Assembly (NCBI GenBank): GCA_000004695.1
Contig: CH709168.1
Span: 1-5,151 of the forward strand
DNA: 5,151 nt
Origin: Dictyostelium discoideum
Lineage: Eukaryota
Direction of reading: 5' to 3'
A model generated the notes under the pieces. The model did no database searches. It was not told the origin of the DNA and was given only the letters and a program-made list of their open reading frames with translations. Made by a program: the position numbers and the translations under genes. Positions 1 through 5,151 of this stretch are shown piece by piece. Positions within the stretch are counted from its first letter, which is position 1; each line of letters begins with the position of its first letter.

Positions 1-2
1 TA

Positions 3-461
3 ATGAATTTCCACTTGTTTTTATATTATCCAATTTATATAAAAAATTGGGGTGCACCAAAATACACTTCAGCTGAAACTTTTGAAGCACAATTATCAAG
101 AATTAAAAATTATTTAAATAATAATACAAATAATAGGGATGAACAATTTGAAAGGGTTACCAAATTAAACATGGTGAAATTTTTTAATTCAGTAGATAAA
201 TTAAAAAGTATTGAACCTGAAAGTACAGCATTAATTATTGGTAACAAAATAAAAAATCCAGATAATTTAGATAACATAAAAATTAAATTAGATTCATTAT
301 TTCAAAATTATAAAAATTTAACTTTTAACTCATCAATTAAAAATAATAAAGAAATATACAATGTTGGTGATGCCGTTGAAGTTGCATCATATAATGAACT
401 TTCAGGTAGATGGTCAGGTATTATCAATTCAATATCAATGATTGAAATGGATGATAACTAG
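3..461 (+). CDS. Hypothetical N/K-rich protein, 152 aa from the first ATG. It may be 5'-truncated, because the frame could be open upstream of the window start.
   Basis: Longest ORF in an AT-rich segment with yeast-like codon use. No recognisable motif and no similarity to the FLP N-terminal domain. The poly-N tract (NNNTNNRDEQ) is typical of AT-rich eukaryotic or plasmid proteins. Confidence 0.3.
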   Translation: MNFHLFLYYPIYIKNWGAPKYTSAETFEAQLSRIKNYLNNNTNNRDEQFERVTKLNMVKFFNSVDKLKSIEPESTALIIGNKIKNPDNLDNIKIKLDSLFQNYKNLTFNSSIKNNKEIYNVGDAVEVASYNELSGRWSGIINSISMIEMDDN

Positions 462-706
462 TAAAACATGAAATATTATTAAATTATTTTGACAAATATG
501 TTGGTGACCAATACCATTTTCTTTCAAATAAATTATTTTACATATGATAGTATTCTAAATATAGTTATACCAATTCAAATTGATGATACCAATTACCTTA
601 TAATTTACAAATACCATGATATATAATTATGACTGGTATTCACAAGTTGCTCCCTTCATCTGCAAAGTATAAAGAGATATAGGATGCAAATCAAGTATTC
701 AAGCAC

Positions 707-1307
707 TTGTCTACTATCAAAGTTATCCCCAAGTACATATACACTGCGCTATTAAACAAGACACTTGTACTCTTGAAAATGTTTGGTTTATCAAGATCAT
801 CAGACTTAGTGAAGTGGTCGTTCAAAGGTCTCATTATTACTACTGACTCAATCAAAGGTCCAGTTATCAATGCTAAAGAACAAAGAAGTGGTGTTGTTTC
901 AATCTTAGAATTAACATCGTTAGATGATACTAACTCTCAAGTATGTCCTGTTCGACCTTGCAACATACCTTAGAGCCTCTAAAGGAAGAAGAAAGCCCCA
1001 TTGGGGTGACTCTGTCTTTATTAAGAATGAGGGTGAACCGCTCCAAGTTAATGATATAAATTCAATTGTATTATCAACACTCTCAAGCTCCGGTATTGAT
1101 ACTAGAAAGTTCAAATCTCACTCTATCCGTTCCGCTATGGCTTCTCTGCTGTTGTTCAATAACGTTCCGTTCCATGTTGTCAAGAAGATGGGTCGCTGGA
1201 AATCAAACGATACTGTAGATACCTTCTACGATAAAAGAATCATTGGTGAAAAATCTGGTGGTATTTTCATTGATACTGTCGTTCAAATAAATAAATGTTA
1301 TTCATAA
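707..1307 (+). pseudogene. Tyrosine recombinase catalytic domain, FLP- or Crypton-like, interrupted by a +1 frameshift near 950-960 and lacking a proper ATG start.
   Basis: Translation gives GLSRSSDLVKWSFKG (box I Arg, compare FLP GRFSDIKNVDPKSFK), then SQVCPVR, and after the frame change LATYLRASKGRRKP...KSHSIRSAMASLLL (H-x-x-R), GRWKS (the G-x-W) and the nucleophile Tyr in DTFYDKR. The R...H..R...W...Y spacing of ~150 aa matches FLP R191-Y343. Frame 2 (707-973) and frame 0 (924-1307) overlap, so one base is missing or added near 950-960. The only possible starts are TTG at 707 or an ATG at 779, just before the catalytic Arg. Confidence 0.6.
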
Positions 1308-1321
1308 TATATATATATATT
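1308..1321. repeat. (TA)n dinucleotide microsatellite immediately after the recombinase stop codon.
   Basis: A tatatatatatat run read directly from the sequence. Confidence 0.8.
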
Positions 1322-1357
1322 TAATATAAAATATAATTTAATAAATTAAATTTTTAA

Positions 1358-1680
1358 TTCTCATTTAATACCAATTCACGTAGCCAACCTTCTCATAATG
1401 ACTCTGACACTGAGAATGAACAAAGTGATGATGAATCAAGTAACAATGTCGATGTTCCAACCGATTATCAATTATCCGATACCTTACTTGGTCAGTACAA
1501 ACATATGGTAAACAATCAAGGTTTACTCGTCAAAGAAGAATGTATCCTCAAGAAAGATGAGATATCCGAATTGAATAAAATATTCAATTTTCCATCTAAC
1601 ATCCAAGTGAATGTCGCTCCATTCGGTACACCTGAAGGTATTACTGTATCATTCAACGTCAAGAACAATGATACTGACTA
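1358..1680 (+). CDS. Acidic S/D/E-rich ORF fragment of 107 codons, open from the preceding stop, with no in-frame ATG until codon ~50. It is a possible C-terminal exon or a pseudogene.
   Basis: Open frame reading ...HNDSDTENEQSDDESSNNVDVPTDYQLSDTLLGQYKHMVNNQGLLVKEECILKKDEISELNKIFNFPSNIQVNVAPFGTPEGITVSFNVKNNDTD*. Codon use is coherent and yeast-like (TTA, GGT, CCA, GTC). A 37-codon ATG-initiated ORF lies in another frame at 1397-1510. Confidence 0.3.
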
Positions 1681-1735
1681 GTTATTAGTCAATGACAAGT
1701 GGTTGGTGAAAGGTTTACAGGTGGAGTTGTATTGA

Positions 1736-1777
1736 CCACCATGACCTTAGTCAAGTAGCGCATTGTGTCACGTAATT
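1736..1777. repeat. Left arm of a 42-bp inverted repeat. The inner 30 bp (1748-1777) are perfect.
   Basis: tagtcaagtagcgcattgtgtcacgtaatt is the exact reverse complement of 1979-2008. The match extends to 40/42 identity over 1736-1777 versus 1979-2020. Confidence 0.9.
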
Positions 1778-1978
1778 GGGATAAGATCAACAGCATTAAC
1801 AGGCTGGCCTGCCTTTGATGAGGCGTTAGGTAACGAGTACACATTTTCAGAAGTGATGGTCAGGTTCATACTACGCTCCGTTCGCGTTTGAACTTCAGGC
1901 TTAACGCAGAAGGTATATATAACGATTCTATTCATTTGAACTACGGTATTGTTGATCTTAATCGTGGGCGTGTATCCG

Positions 1979-2020
1979 AATTACGTGACACAATGCGCTA
2001 CTTGACTAGGGTCATGTTGG
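1979..2020. repeat. Right arm of the 42-bp inverted repeat. It encloses a 201-bp core (1778-1978).
   Basis: aattacgtgacacaatgcgctacttgacta is the reverse complement of the left arm. The whole element spans 1736-2020 (285 bp). Confidence 0.9.
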
Positions 2021-2030
2021 CTTAATTGAA

Positions 2031-2059
2031 AGAGGGGATGTACTACATCCTCTTTTTTT
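2031..2059 (+). terminator. Rho-independent terminator-like hairpin followed by a T7 run.
   Basis: agaggggatg tacta catcctct followed by ttttttt. The stem is ~10 bp with one G bulge or G-U pair. No A-tract precedes it, so it is unidirectional on the + strand. Confidence 0.5.
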
Positions 2060-2095
2060 GATCTATTGATATGTAAAGTTTTACACAGTACCGGA

Positions 2096-2101
2096 TATAA
2101 T
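2096..2101 (+). promoter_or_regulatory. Perfect sigma70 -10 hexamer TATAAT. The -35 is weak: GTAAAG at 17 bp, or TTTACA at only 10 bp spacing.
   Basis: Hexamer read from the sequence. No convincing -35 is present, so this is speculative. Confidence 0.2.
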
Positions 2102-2136
2102 GTGTAGGGATAACCTCTCTGCATGCAAGTACTCCA

Positions 2137-2559
2137 AAAGATTAAAATTATTATGACGAAGATTAACACCCTCATTAAGGGTATGGCTTGACCAGAACAC
2201 ATGTTATCCCCTTATTTTTCTTTTAAGTCAATGGAGGAATGTCATGCCATGTAAATCTTTTGATTTTGGTAACTGTACAAAACGCACTGCAGCGGCCGAT
2301 AAAGCCAAGCGAGATGCTAATCCAATTCTTCGTACTCAGTTACTGAAGAAGATTCGTTAATGACTGATCGGCAAGCCAGCATCTCCAGAATGGTAGAACT
2401 GGATCTCTTGGTAGATCAGCATTAAAAGCCAAAAGACACAACTTAACCCAGAACATATTGCCATGATAATCGAACTGCTTGGTGAGGGTAATTGCAGAAA
2501 TGCTTAATATCGATAGATCAAAAATATTCCGTTATCGTAAAGAGAACGGTATCGTATAG
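2137..2559 (+). pseudogene. Decayed serine recombinase of the DNA invertase / resolvase family (Hin/Gin/Cin-like). It carries several frameshifts and stops, and the N-terminal catalytic Ser region is missing.
   Basis: Frame 0, 2157-2360: TRLTPSLRVWLDQNTCYPLIFLLSQWRNVMPCKSFDFGNCTKRTAAADKAKRD..., compare Gin [36 protein letters not shown]. Frame 1: NGRTGSLGRSALKAKRHNLTQ, compare NKGRIGGRPPKLTKAE. Frames 2 and 1: IIELLGEGNC / RVIAEMLNIDRSKIFRYRKENGIV*, the typical C-terminal HTH ending ...IA..L.IsRSTiYRY. The VW motif at 2181 to the C-terminal stop at 2559 is 378 nt; the equivalent distance in Gin is ~375 nt. The only intact piece is a 38-codon ORF at 2244-2360 with a GGAGG Shine-Dalgarno site at 2233-2237. 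Confidence 0.5.
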
Positions 2560-2562
2560 CTC

Positions 2563-2595
2563 AAAAAGACCAGCCAATAACACTGGTCTTTTTTG
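2563..2595 (+). terminator. Intrinsic terminator immediately after the invertase-remnant stop codon.
   Basis: aaaAGACCAG ccaataaca CTGGTCTttttt. A 7-9 bp stem, 9-nt loop and T5 tail, preceded by an A-run, so it could act on both strands. Confidence 0.6.
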
Positions 2596-2754
2596 TAATC
2601 ACCAAACAATGATATCCGTTGCAGTTTTCCTGGTAGGAACTCTAAGACAACCTAAGTTCAATCAGTAGGGGTTAACCAGACCTTTTGGTGAAGTGTTAGT
2701 ATTGACTGTAATAGCTATAGAGCTACGTGAAATTCGAATGGGTGTCACCCAATT

Positions 2755-2844
2755 GGAGAATTGTCCGAGTGGTTCAAGGTAACGGTCTTGAAAACCGTCG
2801 GGCGGGAAACCGCTCCTAGAGTTCGAATCTCTAATTCTCTGCCA
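2755..2844 (+). tRNA. tRNA-Ser, anticodon UGA, type II with a long variable arm and genomically encoded CCA.
   Basis: Acceptor GGAGAAT/ATTCTCT, then G and CCA. Anticodon stem ACGGT/ACCGT with loop CTTGAAA. Perfect T-arm TAGAG-TTCGAAT-CTCTA. GGTCTTGAAAACCG and GAGTTCGAATCTCT are near-identical to E. coli serT. Positions 1-72 form a G-U pair and 10-25 a U-U pair, both slightly unusual. Confidence 0.85.
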
Positions 2845-2975
2845 ATTAAGATCTAAAGAAATCGCTATACGGTCACGAACGGGGATCGATAAAAGCCTAA
2901 GAGTGAAAGCCTCTACCGTTCTCTCAAACAGGGTTCAGCACTCTGTCTATAACGTATAAAGGAAAAGGAAAGATA

Positions 2976-3263
2976 ATGGCTACTAAGATTTCAATTACCC
3001 GTGCATTGGCCACAGTTAAATCCATGTCCAACGGTCTGATGCTTATTTCACTAACTCGCGGTACTGATGAGTTCGCCCAAGAAGCTGGTTTCAATGATTC
3101 CGTTGGGGCGGTTTCTGATGCGATCAAAGAAAACTACCAGGGTTTACAAGATATCATTCGTGTGCATGAAGATATCCTTGCTAAAGTGATCTTGTCCAAC
3201 GATACTACGCTTATTACCGTAGCTGGCAAAGAATACTGTGTGGTGTATTCTTTGCCACGATAG
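2976..3263 (+). CDS. Hypothetical protein, 95 aa.
   Basis: ATG preceded by AAGGAAAAGGAAAG (Shine-Dalgarno-like). E. coli-like codon usage (CGT, GGT, CTG, AAA, GAA). No recognisable motif. Confidence 0.5.
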   Translation: MATKISITRALATVKSMSNGLMLISLTRGTDEFAQEAGFNDSVGAVSDAIKENYQGLQDIIRVHEDILAKVILSNDTTLITVAGKEYCVVYSLPR

Positions 3264-3270
3264 GGAATCG

Positions 3271-3543
3271 CTAATCTGGGAATTCATCACGACGCATTAC
3301 ATCAGAAGAGACGTTCTGAACAAACACGGTAATCTGTGCAATTAAGTAATTGCTTACAACAGCGAGTTCGTCTTTGGCAGCTTTCAGACCAAAGATAACC
3401 GACTCACCCGTAATACATTCTGCATCAGCAAAAGTCAATGCGGTAGCAATTATTTGTACGGCAGATGCACCATTATACTCCTCAAGTGACGAAACCACAG
3501 AGGCAGGGTTAACTTCAAGTTGGCCAATTTCAATAGCTGCCAT
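3271..3543 (-). CDS. Hypothetical protein, 90 aa, convergent with the previous ORF across a 7-bp gap.
   Basis: Coherent codon usage. The overlapping + strand ORF (3350-3631) is S/A/T-rich and low-complexity, so the minus frame is preferred. The ribosome binding site is weak. Confidence 0.4.
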   Translation of the reverse strand: MAAIEIGQLEVNPASVVSSLEEYNGASAVQIIATALTFADAECITGESVIFGLKAAKDELAVVSNYLIAQITVFVQNVSSDVMRRDEFPD

Positions 3544-3656
3544 AACTCTAGCCTATAACTCTTGTGCTTTTGTTTCGTTCATGGATGTACGCACAAAAAG
3601 CAAATTTAAATTTAATTTAAAGCGAATTTAAAGTCCTGTACAAAAGCAATTTTTAA

Positions 3657-3734
3657 GGTAATTTTAAAGGTAATTTTTAAGGTTACTTTAAAACCACCTT
3701 ATAAATTACCTTTATAATTACCTTAGAAATTAAC
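3657..3734. repeat. Array of a 12-bp motif, three direct copies followed by three inverted copies. Together with flanking AAAGCAATT half-sites it forms a ~110-bp imperfect palindrome (~3640-3752).
   Basis: Direct copies: GGTAATTTTAAA, GGTAATTTTTAA, GGTTACTTTAAA. Centre: aCCACC. Inverted copies: TTATAAATTACC, TTTATAATTACC, TTAGAAATTAAC. The latter are reverse complements of the same motif. Confidence 0.75.
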
Positions 3735-3828
3735 TTTTTAATTGCTTTAAAAGCGAGGTCCTGAGTTCGAAGCCGTTATTTAACGGATAAATTTTATAAA
3801 AATTTTTTTTGAATTTTTTGAAAATTTA

Positions 3829-3870
3829 CCAAAAGGGTAGTCTCATCAATCAAAGGGTAGTCTCATCAAC
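3829..3870. repeat. Two tandem 20-21 bp direct repeats (iteron-like).
   Basis: caAAAGGGTAGTCTCATCAAt immediately followed by cAAAGGGTAGTCTCATCAAc. A 7-bp inverted repeat TCATCAA...TTGATGA follows at 3864-3897. Confidence 0.8.
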
Positions 3871-3998
3871 CATTACACCATTTGATTGCTTTGATGATAA
3901 TTTAAAAATGATAGAATATTTTATCCCCATTTTTTTGATCTAAAATTAGATGTTTTTTATTAAAAACCTTAAATTTATATTTAAAGGAAATTTTAATT

Positions 3999-4042
3999 CA
4001 CTTTAAATCTACTTTAAATCAACTTTAAATCCTCTTTAAAAT
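3999..4042. repeat. Four tandem 10-12 bp units with a CTTTAAAT core, phased at the helical repeat.
   Basis: cactttaaat, ctactttaaat, caactttaaat, cctctttaaaat. Similar TATCTTAAAA(A)T units occur at 4075-4097. Confidence 0.7.
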
Positions 4043-4056
4043 TATTTTAAAATAAT
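4041..4056. repeat. 16-bp perfect palindrome ATTATTTTAAAATAAT.
   Basis: The sequence equals its own reverse complement. Confidence 0.85.
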
Positions 4057-4162
4057 TTTTAAAGGCATTTTTAAATATCTTAAAATTATCTTAAAAATTA
4101 CCTTGAAAATGAATTTTTTAAACCCGGCTTTAAATTCAATTTAATTCCAATTTAAATCAACT

Positions 4163-4184
4163 TTGCTTTAAATTTGCTTTAAAT
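4163..4184. repeat. Tandem duplication of the 11-mer TTGCTTTAAAT.
   Basis: ttgctttaaat followed directly by ttgctttaaat. Confidence 0.8.
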
Positions 4185-4249
4185 GTGGATTTTTCTGTGC
4201 TGCACATGCACATAATGCATTAGGCGAGAAACGCGATATTGTCAAAGCT

Positions 4250-4453
4250 TTGAAAGCCAACTACGAATCGATATCTCGTCACAACGGTAACTCCAATTTT
4301 GACCAGCGTGAAAATACCGCGCGCACCGAAGCATTCAACGGTACTAAGAAAGCCGATGAAGCTTCCATTGCTGTGTTCGTTAATCCAGTTATCGAACGTT
4401 ATCAGCCAGGCGTGCTGTATCCGCTGGAGATCAGCAAAGTAATCAAGCAGTAG
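4250..4453 (+). CDS. Hypothetical protein, TTG start per the ORF track. The frame is open from 4172 and resumes after the TAG at 4451 for 29 more codons, to 4543.
   Basis: E. coli-like codon usage (CTG, CGT, CCG, GGT). No ATG anywhere in frame from 4172. The TAG at 4451-4453 is followed in frame by EKEILDFEANIDYALTESTKIEIVDGVVV*. Confidence 0.4.
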   Translation: MKANYESISRHNGNSNFDQRENTARTEAFNGTKKADEASIAVFVNPVIERYQPGVLYPLEISKVIKQ

Positions 4454-4776
4454 GAAAAAGAGATTCTGGATTTCGAAGCCAACATTGATTACGCGTTAAC
4501 TGAATCTACCAAAATCGAAATTGTAGATGGTGTGGTAGTTTAATTAAATTAAAAAGCTTGTCTTCGTTTGACGAATAGTCGAACACCGCCCTTGGGAGGT
4601 TAAACCACCAGCTCACTATATACACGCTGTGGGTCGATGGTTCGAGTCATTTCTGTGGAAACACAGTAGCTCGGTCGGTTATAGCAATAGTCAAAACATT
4701 AAATAAATAACACCTAGCATGATCCAAATTACAGAATGTGGTATTCGATATCACCACGTCCGTAAGATTAGTATAT

Positions 4777-4807
4777 AGGATGGTTTTACCCCTCCTGGTT
4801 TTATTTT
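4777..4807 (+). terminator. Weak terminator-like hairpin followed by a T-rich tail.
   Basis: AGGATGG ttttacc CCTCCT ggttttatttt. The stem is imperfect and not associated with any upstream ORF. Confidence 0.2.
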
Positions 4808-5057
4808 GAGATGAATGTCCGTCATTAGGCACCCTTAATAGCGGAAGGCGGTGAATTGGAGACTTGGGACGTGGCTGAAAGTATGCCAGCAAATAACCGA
4901 CGCTTACACTTTGGTGTAAGTAAACCACAATCAACCGCGTAGCATCTAAAAATAAAAGAACAATGACAGAAGCACTTCCGATATTACGTGGTTGGGTGTT
5001 GTAGAAGTCTGACGGTCAACCCCGCCATCGGTCACCTATTAAGAGGATTAGTTTACC

Positions 5058-5151
5058 ATGGAAATTCCAAAAAGCTATGTGGCAACTGATTTTAAATATG
5101 TTAACAACCAACCTTATGTGCGTGGTCAGCGTGTATTAATAATAATGCCTA
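5058..5151 (+). CDS. 5' part of an ORF running off the window (MEIPKSYVATDFKYVNNQPYVRGQRVLIIMP...).
   Basis: ATG preceded by AAGAGGA ~11 nt upstream. The frame is open to the window end. Confidence 0.4.
   Translation, partial: MEIPKSYVATDFKYVNNQPYVRGQRVLIIMP

What the first reader, a model, noticed from the sequence alone, without database searches (positions are those of the whole stretch)
2137..2559. Serine recombinase pseudogene whose N-terminus is replaced by a terminator hairpin
Three reading frames together reproduce the invertase domain order: the [10 protein letters not shown]-like VWLDQNT, then LIxL....R...SxxD, then the GRxGxxGR linker, then the C-terminal HTH ending IAEMLNIDRSKIFRYRKENGIV. 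The frames are separated by stops and shifts, which indicates old decay. The catalytic Ser region (Y.RVS..Q) should lie ~180 nt upstream of 2181. That position is now the right inverted-repeat arm and the 2031-2059 hairpin, which suggests an insertion, deletion or replacement. A 38-codon ORF with a strong GGAGG site survives at 2244-2360 and might still be expressed as a micro-protein.
Basis: partly seen in the sequence, partly recalled or inferred. Interest (0 to 1): 0.55.

Follow-up and report, generated by a model that had tools for sequence, protein, structure and literature searches.

The report
Decayed phage DNA-binding gene in Dictyostelium
The flagged stretch is the dead remnant of a small bacteriophage helix-turn-helix gene, inside a block of phage DNA stranded among DIRS-1 retrotransposons in the amoeba Dictyostelium discoideum; a recombinase catalytic domain cannot be shown.

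Summary
The peptides, stops, frameshifts, GGAGG-led 38-codon ORF and upstream hairpin are all at the stated coordinates. Only the C-terminal part is more than chance. A 96%-identical paralogous copy shows that two of the frame breaks are small deletions specific to this window. Undoing them gives a near-continuous ~70-codon frame: GRTGSLGRSALSKSQKTQLNPEHIAMIIELLGEGNSD*VIAEMLNIDRSKIFRYRKENGIV.

This reconstruction gives weak, sub-threshold but consistent helix-turn-helix matches. They include the C-terminal DNA-binding region of serine invertases (PHROG 125, NCBIfam Mpi, Pfam HTH_7). HTH_29, HTH_23 and a 109-aa phage "transposase" family match equally well.

No catalytic resolvase domain is detectable. 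Pfam PF00239 is absent even on the most favourable stitched peptide. A frameshift-tolerant profile alignment of the catalytic part scores within the range of unrelated phage DNA.

The hairpin is an ordinary intrinsic terminator of the preceding unit, so nothing shows that it replaced an N-terminus.

The window is the whole 5151-bp unplaced contig of D. discoideum AX4. It holds a phage-derived block (tRNA-Ser, T5.085-like gene, terminators) embedded in and interrupted by DIRS-1 sequence. A Shine-Dalgarno-driven micro-protein is therefore implausible. The finding itself is ordinary; the context is the more interesting part.

The parts
2028..2058 (+). Intrinsic-terminator-like hairpin (stem 2028-2041 / 2045-2058, followed by a T-run). 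It ends the preceding phage-derived unit.
   Evidence: -15.9 kcal/mol, z -4.4, 0 of 200 shuffles fold as well. Conserved in paralogue L004.
2233..2237 (+). GGAGG Shine-Dalgarno-like motif, 6 nt upstream of the ATG at 2244.
   Evidence: Read directly from the sequence. It is GGAGGG in L004.
2244..2360 (+). 38-codon ORF MPCKSFDFGNCTKRTAAADKAKRDANPILRTQLLKKIR. The 2244 ATG is the first start codon in a 67-codon open frame. It is either a small phage ORF or the N-terminus of an ancestral ~110-codon gene. Its TAA stop overlaps the next ATG (TAATG at 2358-2362).
   Evidence: Identical in L004. No family match (phrog_7233 E 0.07).
2360..2422 (+). Frame reading MTDRQASISRMVELDLLVDQH. This is the candidate start of the HTH gene (translational coupling), or alternatively an internal segment.
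   Evidence: Adding this segment raises the phrog_9366 score from 19.6 to 26.4 bits.
2368..2424 (+). Frame reading SASQHLQNGRTGSLGRSAL, the 'GR-x-G-x-x-GR' stretch. In L004 this frame runs on without a break into the HTH.
   Evidence: The PHROG 125 DNA-invertase match starts here (profile position 149).
2422..2426 (+). Site of a window-specific 4-nt deletion. L004 has GCAT-TAAG-TAAAAG here. The deletion causes one of the frame breaks.
2424..2489 (+). KSQKTQLNPEHIAMIIELLGEG, the first helix region of the HTH domain.
2487..2493 (+). Site of a window-specific 14-nt deletion between GTAAT direct repeats. The inferred ancestor is GAGGGTAAT-AGCGATTAAGTAAT-TGCAG; L004 has instead lost one G. The restored reading is ...LLGEGNSD*VIAEML..., with one TAA that both copies share.
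2488..2559 (+). VIAEMLNIDRSKIFRYRKENGIV plus TAG: the turn and recognition helix, and the end of the gene.
   Evidence: own serine-recombinase HMM positions 145-181 map to 2434-2544.
2563..2593 (+). Second intrinsic-terminator-like hairpin (stem 2563-2573 / 2583-2593, followed by a T-run). It closes the ~500-bp unit.
   Evidence: -13.3 kcal/mol, z -4.5.
2055..2072 (.). Left arm of an 18-nt inverted repeat (1 mismatch). The right arm, at 2507-2524, lies inside the HTH coding part. Its function is unknown.
   Evidence: I21. 0 of 60 dinucleotide shuffles contain such a pair. Both arms are identical in L004.

Best explanation
Positions 2244-2559 are a non-functional relic of a short bacteriophage transcription unit bounded by two intrinsic terminators. 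The unit encoded a small helix-turn-helix DNA-binding protein. The protein was either about 72 aa starting at the ATG at 2360, which overlaps the stop of a 38-codon leader ORF, or about 110 aa starting at the Shine-Dalgarno-led ATG at 2244.

Its HTH belongs to the homeodomain-like / resolvase-type class, as found in the C-terminal domains of serine invertases and in small IS-type 'transposase' HTH proteins. No recombinase catalytic domain is attached in what survives.

The unit is part of a block of at least 3.5 kb of phage DNA (window 1684-5151) that also holds a tRNA-Ser and a T5.085-like gene. This block entered the Dictyostelium discoideum nuclear genome, became embedded in DIRS-1 retrotransposon sequence, was duplicated, and is decaying neutrally.

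Shown: the pseudogene state, the HTH, the terminators, the phage origin of the block, and the Dictyostelium/DIRS-1 setting.
Inferred: the original gene boundaries, the stand-alone nature of the protein, and the absence of any present function.
For: Source and setting:
- The window is 99.8% identical to the end of a 4.9-Mb D. discoideum contig.
- It equals the 5151-bp unplaced AX4 contig that carries DDB_G0294314.
- Window 625-1683 and 3597-4200 match DIRS-1.

Phage origin of the block:
- The split gene at 2976-3254 plus 4211-4540 matches PHROG 1491 at 1.3e-35.
- The same gene shows 41% identity to Erwinia jumbo-phage and PVP-SE1/T5.085 proteins that sit in tRNA regions.
- tRNA-Ser at 2755-2844.
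- Terminator hairpins.

Pseudogene and reconstruction:
- Paralogue L004 (about 96% identical) lacks the 4-nt and 14-nt deletions, which gives a continuous frame.

HTH matches on the reconstruction:
- Pfam HTH_29 3.5e-5, HTH_23 5e-4, HTH_7 2-3e-3.
- phrog_9366 (109-aa 'transposase') 1.1e-5 and PHROG 125 DNA invertase 5.4e-5.
- NCBIfam Mpi invertase C-terminus about 1e-3.

No catalytic domain:
- No PF00239.
- My own 8-sequence serine-recombinase HMM hits only the HTH.
- The catalytic alignment score lies inside the real-DNA null distribution.

Gene start:
- The first start codon of the 67-codon open frame has a perfect GGAGG 6 nt upstream.
- A TAATG stop/start overlap follows the 38-codon ORF.

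Low decay in the neighbours:
- The tRNA is intact (48.6 bits).
- The T5.085-like gene has one nonsense codon, which is Leu in copy L005.
- A recombinase domain that decayed in place should therefore still be visible. In the simulation, real recombinases score 148-249 bits intact and a mean of 77 bits once their HTH has decayed to 15-22 bits.
Against: - All family matches are below the curated thresholds, and no homologue was found by BLAST or by the word-indexed protein search. The family assignment therefore rests on weak profile signals.
- Three libraries independently rank a serine invertase C-terminus first or near first. The GRTGSLGR stretch just upstream is typical of the recombinase arm region.
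- The full-length frameshift-tolerant alignment to a serine-recombinase profile reaches 31.5 bits (0 of 300 shuffles, 1 of 100 real windows).
- Extension of that alignment upstream of the HTH is marginally better than expected (1 of 300 shuffles, 10 of 272 real phage segments).
- At least one further shared frameshift and one shared TAA must be assumed for any reconstruction.
- The frames used for the reconstruction were chosen by me.
Confidence: 0.55

Rival explanations
1. One reading: a small serine recombinase (invertase/resolvase) gene. Its C-terminal arm and HTH survive, its central catalytic part is heavily decayed in place at 2137-2390, and its Ser-containing N-terminus was lost to a rearrangement.
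For: - PHROG 125 DNA invertase E 5.4e-5, starting at the arm region.
- NCBIfam Mpi invertase is the top hit for every reconstruction.
- Pfam HTH_7 at 2-3e-3.
- tblastn of the reconstruction hits the HTH of an Enterococcus phage serine recombinase at E 0.004 in a small database.
- The frameshift-tolerant alignment spans profile positions 33-181 over nt 2109-2544 at 31.5 bits, pairing SLRVW-LDQNT with [12 protein letters not shown] and TE-EDSLMTDR with aEfERelileR.
- The upstream extension is marginal, p about 0.004-0.04.
- An 18-nt inverted repeat brackets the unit.
Against: - PF00239 is absent at E<=10, even on the stitched path optimised for it.
- PHROG 125 and Mpi scores do not rise when the upstream peptides are added.
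- The catalytic score of 23.6 bits is reached by 6 of 100 unrelated phage windows. An unrelated tyrosine-recombinase stretch of this same window scores 36 bits.
- Neighbouring phage features are barely decayed. The catalytic domain is the best-conserved part of the family, at 148-249 bits intact.
- A perfect SD plus first ATG, a TAATG overlap and a terminator occupy the space where the catalytic domain should be.
Confidence: 0.2
2. The HTH is the C-terminal DNA-binding module of some other larger phage protein that was truncated when the fragment was captured or rearranged. Candidates are an HNH or GIY-YIG homing endonuclease, common in T5-like tRNA regions, or a terminase small subunit.
For: - Weak hits to phage regions annotated as HNH endonuclease (E 0.1-0.4).
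- phrog_826 HNH endonuclease at E 0.2 and terminase small subunit PHROGs at E 0.05-0.2.
- An HNH endonuclease is annotated in the PVP-SE1 stretch that holds the T5.085-like gene and the tRNA genes.
Against: - None of these hits is significant, and they score lower than the invertase and transposase-type HTH families.
- No nuclease motif turned up in any frame.
- The unit is neatly framed by two terminators with an SD-led start.
Confidence: 0.1
3. There was never a gene here. The HTH-like peptide is a chance product of stitching three frames together.
For: All database matches are below the curated cut-offs. The frames were chosen after the fact. No homologue was found by BLAST.
Against: - The paralogue independently joins the frames.
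- The C-terminal score is beaten by none of 300 shuffles and none of 100 real windows.
- Three libraries give concordant HTH hits.
- The stretch ends 4 nt before a terminator stem.
Confidence: 0.07
4. The 38-codon ORF, or the region as RNA, is still used by Dictyostelium, as a micro-protein or a regulatory transcript.
For: The ORF is intact and identical in the two copies. From outside knowledge, DIRS-1 clusters are transcribed; PMC4482531, seen only as a search hit, reports promoter activity in both DIRS-1 terminal repeats.
Against: - Zero differences in 117 nt is not unusual, given 4 differences in the surrounding 270 nt.
- A Shine-Dalgarno motif is irrelevant in a eukaryotic nucleus.
- The flanking genes are broken and interrupted by DIRS-derived insertions.
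- There is no family match.
Confidence: 0.03

Closest known systems
C-terminal DNA-binding domain of small serine recombinases (Hin/Gin/Cin invertases, gamma-delta/Tn3 resolvase, Bacteroides Mpi; Pfam HTH_7 PF02796)
   Same: A Gly/Arg-rich stretch (GRTGSLGR) is followed about 25 residues later by a helix-turn-helix ending ...IAEMLNIDRSKIFRYRKE. This is the top or near-top hit in PHROG, NCBIfam and Pfam.
   Different: All scores are below the curated cut-offs (18 bits against 23.8 for HTH_7; 18.5 against 272 for Mpi). No PF00239 catalytic domain is present. An SD-led start codon and a terminator lie where that domain would be.
Small stand-alone homeodomain-like HTH proteins of phages and insertion sequences (Pfam HTH_29/HTH_23; PHROG 9366, 109-aa 'transposase')
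   Same: These give the best-scoring matches overall (HTH_29 3.5e-5, phrog_9366 1.1e-5 to 7.8e-6). The distance from the ATG at 2244 to the stop is about 110 codons after reconstruction, which matches the 109-position profile.
   Different: The matches are also below threshold. The N-terminal 38 residues add nothing to the score (26.9 against 26.4 bits). Two frameshifts have to be assumed for a single 110-aa gene.
Small-ORF and tRNA regions of large lytic phages (T5, rV5/PVP-SE1, Erwinia Ea35-70-like jumbo phages)
   Same: The T5.085-like gene sits next to tRNA genes, with short SD-led ORFs and intrinsic terminators, all on one strand.
   Different: Identity to any known phage is at most 41-47% at protein level, with no DNA match apart from the tRNA. 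None of the 19 IMG/VR relatives has an HTH homologue nearby. Here the DNA sits in a eukaryotic chromosome.
DIRS-1 clusters of Dictyostelium discoideum
   Same: The block is flanked and interrupted by DIRS-1 coding and terminal-repeat sequence. Neighbouring genes carry RT, RNase H and tyrosine-recombinase domains.
   Different: The 40-43% GC phage-like block is not DIRS-1 sequence and has bacterial-type signals.

Membership tests
Serine recombinase (resolvase/invertase) | N-terminal catalytic domain (Pfam Resolvase PF00239) with the nucleophile-Ser motif Y-x-R-V-S-x-x-Q | tested here: not met
   - No PF00239 hit at E<=10 on the three frames, the stitched peptides or the alignment-optimised path.
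- My own 8-sequence HMM against six frames hits only the HTH.
Serine recombinase (resolvase/invertase) | Central conserved motifs (DRLGR region, E-helix AEfER..ER) collinear with and upstream of the HTH | tested here: inconclusive
   - The frameshift-tolerant alignment does place VW-LDQNT and TE-EDSLMTDR on these motifs.
- The catalytic part scores 23.6 bits, which 2 of 300 shuffles and 6 of 100 real phage windows reach.
- The conditional extension test gives 1 of 300 shuffles and 10 of 272 real segments.
- The decay simulation favours neither model strongly.
Serine recombinase (resolvase/invertase) | C-terminal HTH_7-type DNA-binding domain preceded by a Gly/Arg arm | tested here: inconclusive
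   - HTH_7 at E 2-3e-3, 18 bits against a cut-off of 23.8.
- PHROG 125 at 5.4e-5.
- NCBIfam Mpi at 1e-3, 18.5 bits against a cut-off of 272.
- HTH_29 and HTH_23 score higher.
Serine recombinase (resolvase/invertase) | Cognate recombination sites (inverted crossover sites or res) next to the gene | tested here: inconclusive
   An 18-nt inverted repeat at 2055-2072 / 2507-2524 is non-random. One arm lies inside the HTH coding sequence. By eye, and from my memory of hix/gix sites, neither arm forms the 26-bp two-half-site palindrome. No formal comparison was run.
Small stand-alone HTH protein (HTH_29/HTH_23; PHROG 9366) | Helix-turn-helix match above the family threshold | tested here: inconclusive
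   HTH_29 scores 24.3 bits against a cut-off of 28.1, and HTH_23 scores 20.2 against 24.6. phrog_9366 gives E 1.1e-5 with profile positions 47-105 of 109.
Small stand-alone HTH protein (HTH_29/HTH_23; PHROG 9366) | Short gene with its own start signal and terminator | tested here: met
   - GGAGG plus the first ATG at 2244.
- A TAATG-coupled ATG at 2360.
- The stop at 2557-2559 lies 4 nt before the terminator stem at 2563-2593.
- The intact reading frame itself is inferred, not observed.
Intrinsic (rho-independent) terminator | Stable G+C-containing hairpin followed by a T-run | tested here: met
   one search confirms both hairpins, with z of -4.4 and -4.5. The simple consensus scan missed them because of its loop and stem rules.
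Bacteriophage-derived DNA | Significant homology to phage-specific gene families, in phage-like arrangement | tested here: met
   - PHROG 1491 at 1.3e-35.
- tblastn at 3e-29 to Erwinia phage Ea35-70 gp199, with the same position next to tRNA genes.
- The tRNA-Ser is 76-84% identical to phage tRNA-Ser genes.
Dictyostelium DIRS-1 context | Flanking sequence homologous to an RT / RNase H / tyrosine-recombinase element of D. discoideum | tested here: met

The most novel reading that the evidence does not exclude
The window preserves a multi-feature fragment of a large lytic bacteriophage: the region around its tRNA genes, with a tRNA-Ser, a T5.085-like gene, small SD-led ORFs including this HTH gene, and intrinsic terminators. 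This fragment was horizontally transferred into the nuclear genome of the bacterivorous amoeba D. discoideum. It was captured in DIRS-1 arrays, amplified to at least three diverged copies, and later hit by DIRS-derived insertions. My limited literature searches found no description of this. Its genes are annotated only as 'hypothetical protein' (DDB_G0294314, DDB_G0267286).
Probability: 0.55. Interest if true: 0.55.

Novelty: new member of a known kind. Interest (0 to 1): 0.25.

Why it matters
The flagged element matters little on its own. It is one more dead helix-turn-helix gene, and the recombinase story cannot be established.

The setting may matter more. A bacteriophage fragment survives with its bacterial signals still legible. 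It is fixed and duplicated among the DIRS-1 retrotransposons of a bacterivorous amoeba. That makes it a concrete fossil of prey-derived ('you are what you eat') DNA uptake by a eukaryote. It could also serve as a neutral marker for dating and tracing rearrangements in DIRS-1 arrays.

Tried and rejected
- Near and distant DNA searches against phages found only the tRNA.
- Exact-pattern scans of viral, genome and metagenome collections with a 26-29-nt piece of the HTH found nothing.
- An exact-protein look-up of window ORFs found nothing. The look-up of the AX4 chromosome-1 copy also failed.
- The word-indexed protein search with the stitched 107-aa peptide found nothing.
- tblastn of the stitched and the reconstructed peptide against phages gave a best E of 0.1.
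- A PDB sequence search returned only noise.
- 19 IMG/VR loci carrying T5.085-like genes hold no HTH homologue.
- Stop-codon recoding was considered because of in-frame TAGs. I rejected it because the TAG at 4451 is a Leu codon in copy L005, and the finding's own frame also has a TAA TGA pair.
- A group I intron or another structured RNA was considered for the split gene and for the inverted repeats. Rfam gave nothing, and the insert is DIRS terminal-repeat-like sequence.
- The mir-548-type Rfam hits at 3652-3727 are AT-rich palindromic repeats, not microRNAs.
- No convincing sigma-70 promoter was found by eye between 2059 and 2240, and the scan listed none there.
- Three literature searches found no report of phage DNA in Dictyostelium DIRS clusters.

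Full report
**1. Observation**

- VWLDQNT at 2181-2201.
- GGAGG at 2233-2237, 6 nt before the ATG at 2244.
- A 38-codon ORF at 2244-2360.
- GRTGSLGRSAL at 2392-2424, in another frame.
- LNPEHIAMIIELLGEG at 2442-2489, back in the ORF's frame.
- VIAEMLNIDRSKIFRYRKENGIV-TAG at 2488-2559.

The upstream hairpin is real. Its stem is 2028-2041 / 2045-2058, at -15.9 kcal/mol and z -4.4. A second terminator-like hairpin follows the stop codon, with stem 2563-2573 / 2583-2593 at -13.3 kcal/mol and z -4.5. The finding therefore sits in a roughly 500-bp unit framed by two intrinsic-terminator-like structures.

**2. Where the window comes from**

A T5.085-like gene lies downstream. Its two halves are at 2976-3254 and 4211-4540. 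Stitched together, they match PHROG 1491 at 1.3e-35. They are 41% identical (3e-29) to proteins of Erwinia jumbo phages, and 32% identical to PVP-SE1 gp83. In those phages the gene sits among tRNA genes.

The protein search returned only Dictyostelium discoideum gene models. The window is 99.8% identical to the first 12 kb of a 4.9-Mb D. discoideum contig, locus L003. It is itself the whole 5151-bp unplaced AX4 contig that carries DDB_G0294314. Another copy lies on AX4 chromosome 1, as DDB_G0267286.

The window divides as follows:
- 625-1352 and 1358-1683 are DIRS-1 pieces. A frameshifted tyrosine recombinase there matches Pfam at 2e-9.
- 3597-4200 is DIRS-1 terminal-repeat-like sequence inserted into the phage gene.
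- The 40-43% GC block from 1684 to the end of the window is phage-derived. It holds the tRNA-Ser(UGA) at 2755-2844 with an encoded CCA, the terminators and SD-led ORFs.

A paralogous copy, L004, is about 96% identical and is flanked by DIRS-1 on both sides. A third copy, L005, has the T5.085-like gene without the DIRS-like insert. It also has Leu where the window has an in-frame TAG. This is old phage DNA decaying in a eukaryotic retrotransposon cluster.

**3. The paralogue resolves two of the frame breaks**

Aligning the window with L004 shows two small deletions specific to the window:
- A 4-nt deletion near 2422-2426.
- A 14-nt deletion between GTAAT direct repeats near 2487-2493.

L004 has instead lost one G. 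Undoing these lesions gives the frame SASKHRQNGRTGSLGRSALSKSQKTQLNPEHIAMIIELLGEGNSD*VIAEMLNIDRSKIFRYRKENGIV, with a single TAA that both copies share.

**4. What family is it**

On the raw window frames and a simple stitch, Pfam gives neither Resolvase nor HTH_7, only HTH_29 at E 0.003.

On the reconstruction the matches are:

| Library | Family | E-value |
|---|---|---|
| Pfam | HTH_29 | 3.5e-5 |
| Pfam | HTH_23 | 5e-4 |
| Pfam | HTH_7 | 2-3e-3 |
| PHROG | 9366 (109-aa 'transposase') | 1.1e-5 |
| PHROG | 125 (DNA invertase, profile 149-204 of 254) | 5.4e-5 |
| NCBIfam | Mpi serine invertase C-terminus (134-197 of 203) | about 1e-3 |

All the Pfam and NCBIfam matches are below the curated cut-offs. 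BLAST-level searches find nothing.

The domain is a homeodomain-like / resolvase-type HTH. Its affinity to invertase C-termini is consistent across libraries but weak. It is matched equally well by small stand-alone HTH families.

**5. Is there a catalytic domain**

I took eight phage serine recombinases from annotated records and built an HMM from them.

- A six-frame search of the window hits only 2434-2544, on the HTH positions, at E 0.22.
- I wrote a frameshift-tolerant local profile-to-DNA alignment. Over 1900-2620 it aligns profile positions 33-181 to nt 2109-2544 at 31.5 bits.

Splitting that score by part gives:

| Part | Score (bits) | Dinucleotide shuffles reaching it | Real phage-DNA windows reaching it |
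|---|---|---|---|
| C-terminal | 18.6 | 0 of 300 | 0 of 100 |
| Catalytic | 23.6 | 2 of 300 | 6 of 100 |

The unrelated tyrosine-recombinase stretch of this same window scores 36 bits.

I then kept the HTH fixed and replaced the upstream 486 nt. The observed total is reached by 1 of 300 shuffles and by 10 of 272 real phage segments.

The alignment-optimised stitched peptide still gives no PF00239 at E<=10. It also does not raise the invertase scores in PHROG or NCBIfam.

In a leave-one-out decay simulation, real recombinases score 148-249 bits for the catalytic part and 16-44 bits for the C-terminal part. When the C-terminal score has decayed to 15-22 bits, the catalytic part still averages 77 bits, and only 11% of runs fall to 23.6 bits or below.

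The neighbouring phage features are barely damaged. A catalytic domain decayed in place is therefore unlikely. At most, the catalytic part was never there or was lost entirely.

**6. Gene anatomy favours a short gene**

- The ATG at 2244 is the first start codon in a 67-codon open frame (2157-2357). It has a perfect GGAGG 6 nt upstream.
- Its TAA overlaps an ATG (TAATG at 2358-2362), which opens MTDRQASISRMVELD...
- The open stretches of the three frames overlap pairwise, at 2312-2357 and 2368-2422.

Two reconstructions fit:
- Two coupled ORFs of 38 aa and about 72 aa, needing one shared frameshift plus the TAA.
- One gene of about 110 aa, needing two frameshifts plus the TAA.

Adding MTDRQ... 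raises the phrog_9366 score from 19.6 to 26.4 bits. Using the GRTGS... frame instead raises PHROG 125 from 20.2 to 23.9 bits. Neither gain is decisive. The recombinase reading needs more lesions, and it needs the SD, start and terminator to have arisen inside a former catalytic domain.

**7. Verdict**

The finding is a genuine pseudogene relic of a phage helix-turn-helix protein. Calling it a serine recombinase is not justified, although its DNA-binding domain may be of that lineage. I put a former recombinase at about 0.2.

The hairpin is the terminator of the preceding unit, not a replacement of an N-terminus.

The 38-codon ORF is intact in both copies, but that is unremarkable at this divergence: there are 4 differences in the surrounding 270 nt. 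It lies in eukaryotic nuclear DNA, so a Shine-Dalgarno-driven micro-protein is not expected.

The element is ordinary. The noteworthy point is its setting, a legible phage fragment fixed and amplified in Dictyostelium DIRS-1 clusters. I found no description of this in three literature searches.

**8. Limits**

- The reconstruction uses only two copies, and I chose the frames.
- My alignment scoring parameters were fixed before use but are ad hoc.
- The HMM has eight sequences.
- The exhaustive protein search could not be run on the reconstructed sequence.
- The 18-nt inverted repeat that brackets the unit (2055-2072 / 2507-2524; 0 of 60 shuffles) remains unexplained. So does the 48-nt-arm inverted repeat at 1736-2020 (z -10.5).

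Noticed in passing
window 1-5151 (= L003 7026-12185; paralogues L004 7533-11831 and L005 9957-10505): The window is the whole 5151-bp unplaced contig of Dictyostelium discoideum AX4 (DDB_G0294314). A bacteriophage-derived block of at least 3.5 kb (1684-5151, GC 40-43%) is embedded in DIRS-1 retrotransposon sequence. It is present in at least three diverged copies in a long-read assembly and on AX4 chromosome 1 (DDB_G0267286).
   Followed up: partly
window 2976-3254 and 4211-4540: A T5.085 / PVP-SE1 gp83 / Ea35-70 gp199-like phage gene (PHROG 1491, 1.3e-35) is split after residue ~100 by a ~955-bp insert. It also carries an in-frame TAG at 4451-4453 that is Leu in copy L005. The copy in L005 lacks the insert, so it shows the empty site.
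   Followed up: yes
window 3597-4200; L004 8666-9415: AT-rich inserts built of 11-12-nt tandem repeats are homologous to DIRS-1 terminal repeats. In L004 a ~750-bp copy with terminal inverted repeats CACAGC..GCTGTG and a TT duplication sits exactly at window 2407/2408, inside the finding; the window is the empty site. The Rfam mir-548-type hits at 3652-3727 are these palindromic repeats, not microRNAs.
   Followed up: partly
window 3237-3596: This 360-bp segment (GC 42%) has a 90-codon ORF on the minus strand (3271-3543). It is absent from the L004 copy and has no Pfam or PHROG match. The AX4 and ACTFIT gene models read its plus-strand frame through as an 'exon'.
   Followed up: partly
window 1736-1783 / 1973-2020: An inverted repeat with 48-nt arms (94% complementary, 189 nt apart) folds at -127.6 kcal/mol (z -10.5). 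It lies at the left edge of the phage-like block and is conserved in L004. It has no Rfam match and no phage DNA match. Its function is unknown.
   Followed up: partly
window 2055-2072 / 2507-2524: An 18-nt inverted repeat (1 mismatch; TTTTTGATCTAT[T/C]GATAT) brackets the whole unit. One arm follows the first terminator and the other lies inside the HTH recognition-helix codons. None of 60 shuffles produced such a pair. It is identical in L004 and unexplained.
   Followed up: partly
window 2755-2844: An intact tRNA-Ser(UGA) with an encoded CCA end scores 48.6 bits against the Rfam tRNA model. It is 76-84% identical to tRNA-Ser genes of large phages, so it looks bacterial or phage-type, not like a Dictyostelium nuclear tRNA.
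   Followed up: partly
window 707-1307 and 1358-1681: A frameshifted DIRS-1 tyrosine-recombinase C-terminus (Pfam Phage_integrase 2e-9) is followed by a fragment of the DIRS-1 5' ORF. The DIRS-1 homology breaks at 1683/1684, and L004 has the same junction. The composite was therefore duplicated as a unit.
   Followed up: partly
window 4545-5151; L004 11700-12410: More phage-like sequence follows: about 500 bp with no long ORF and no Rfam hit; an SD-led ORF starting at 5058 (MEIPKSYVATDFKYVNNQPYVRGQ...); and, in L004, decayed frames including a P-loop-like GFSGSRQTGKT stretch. None was identified.
   Followed up: no
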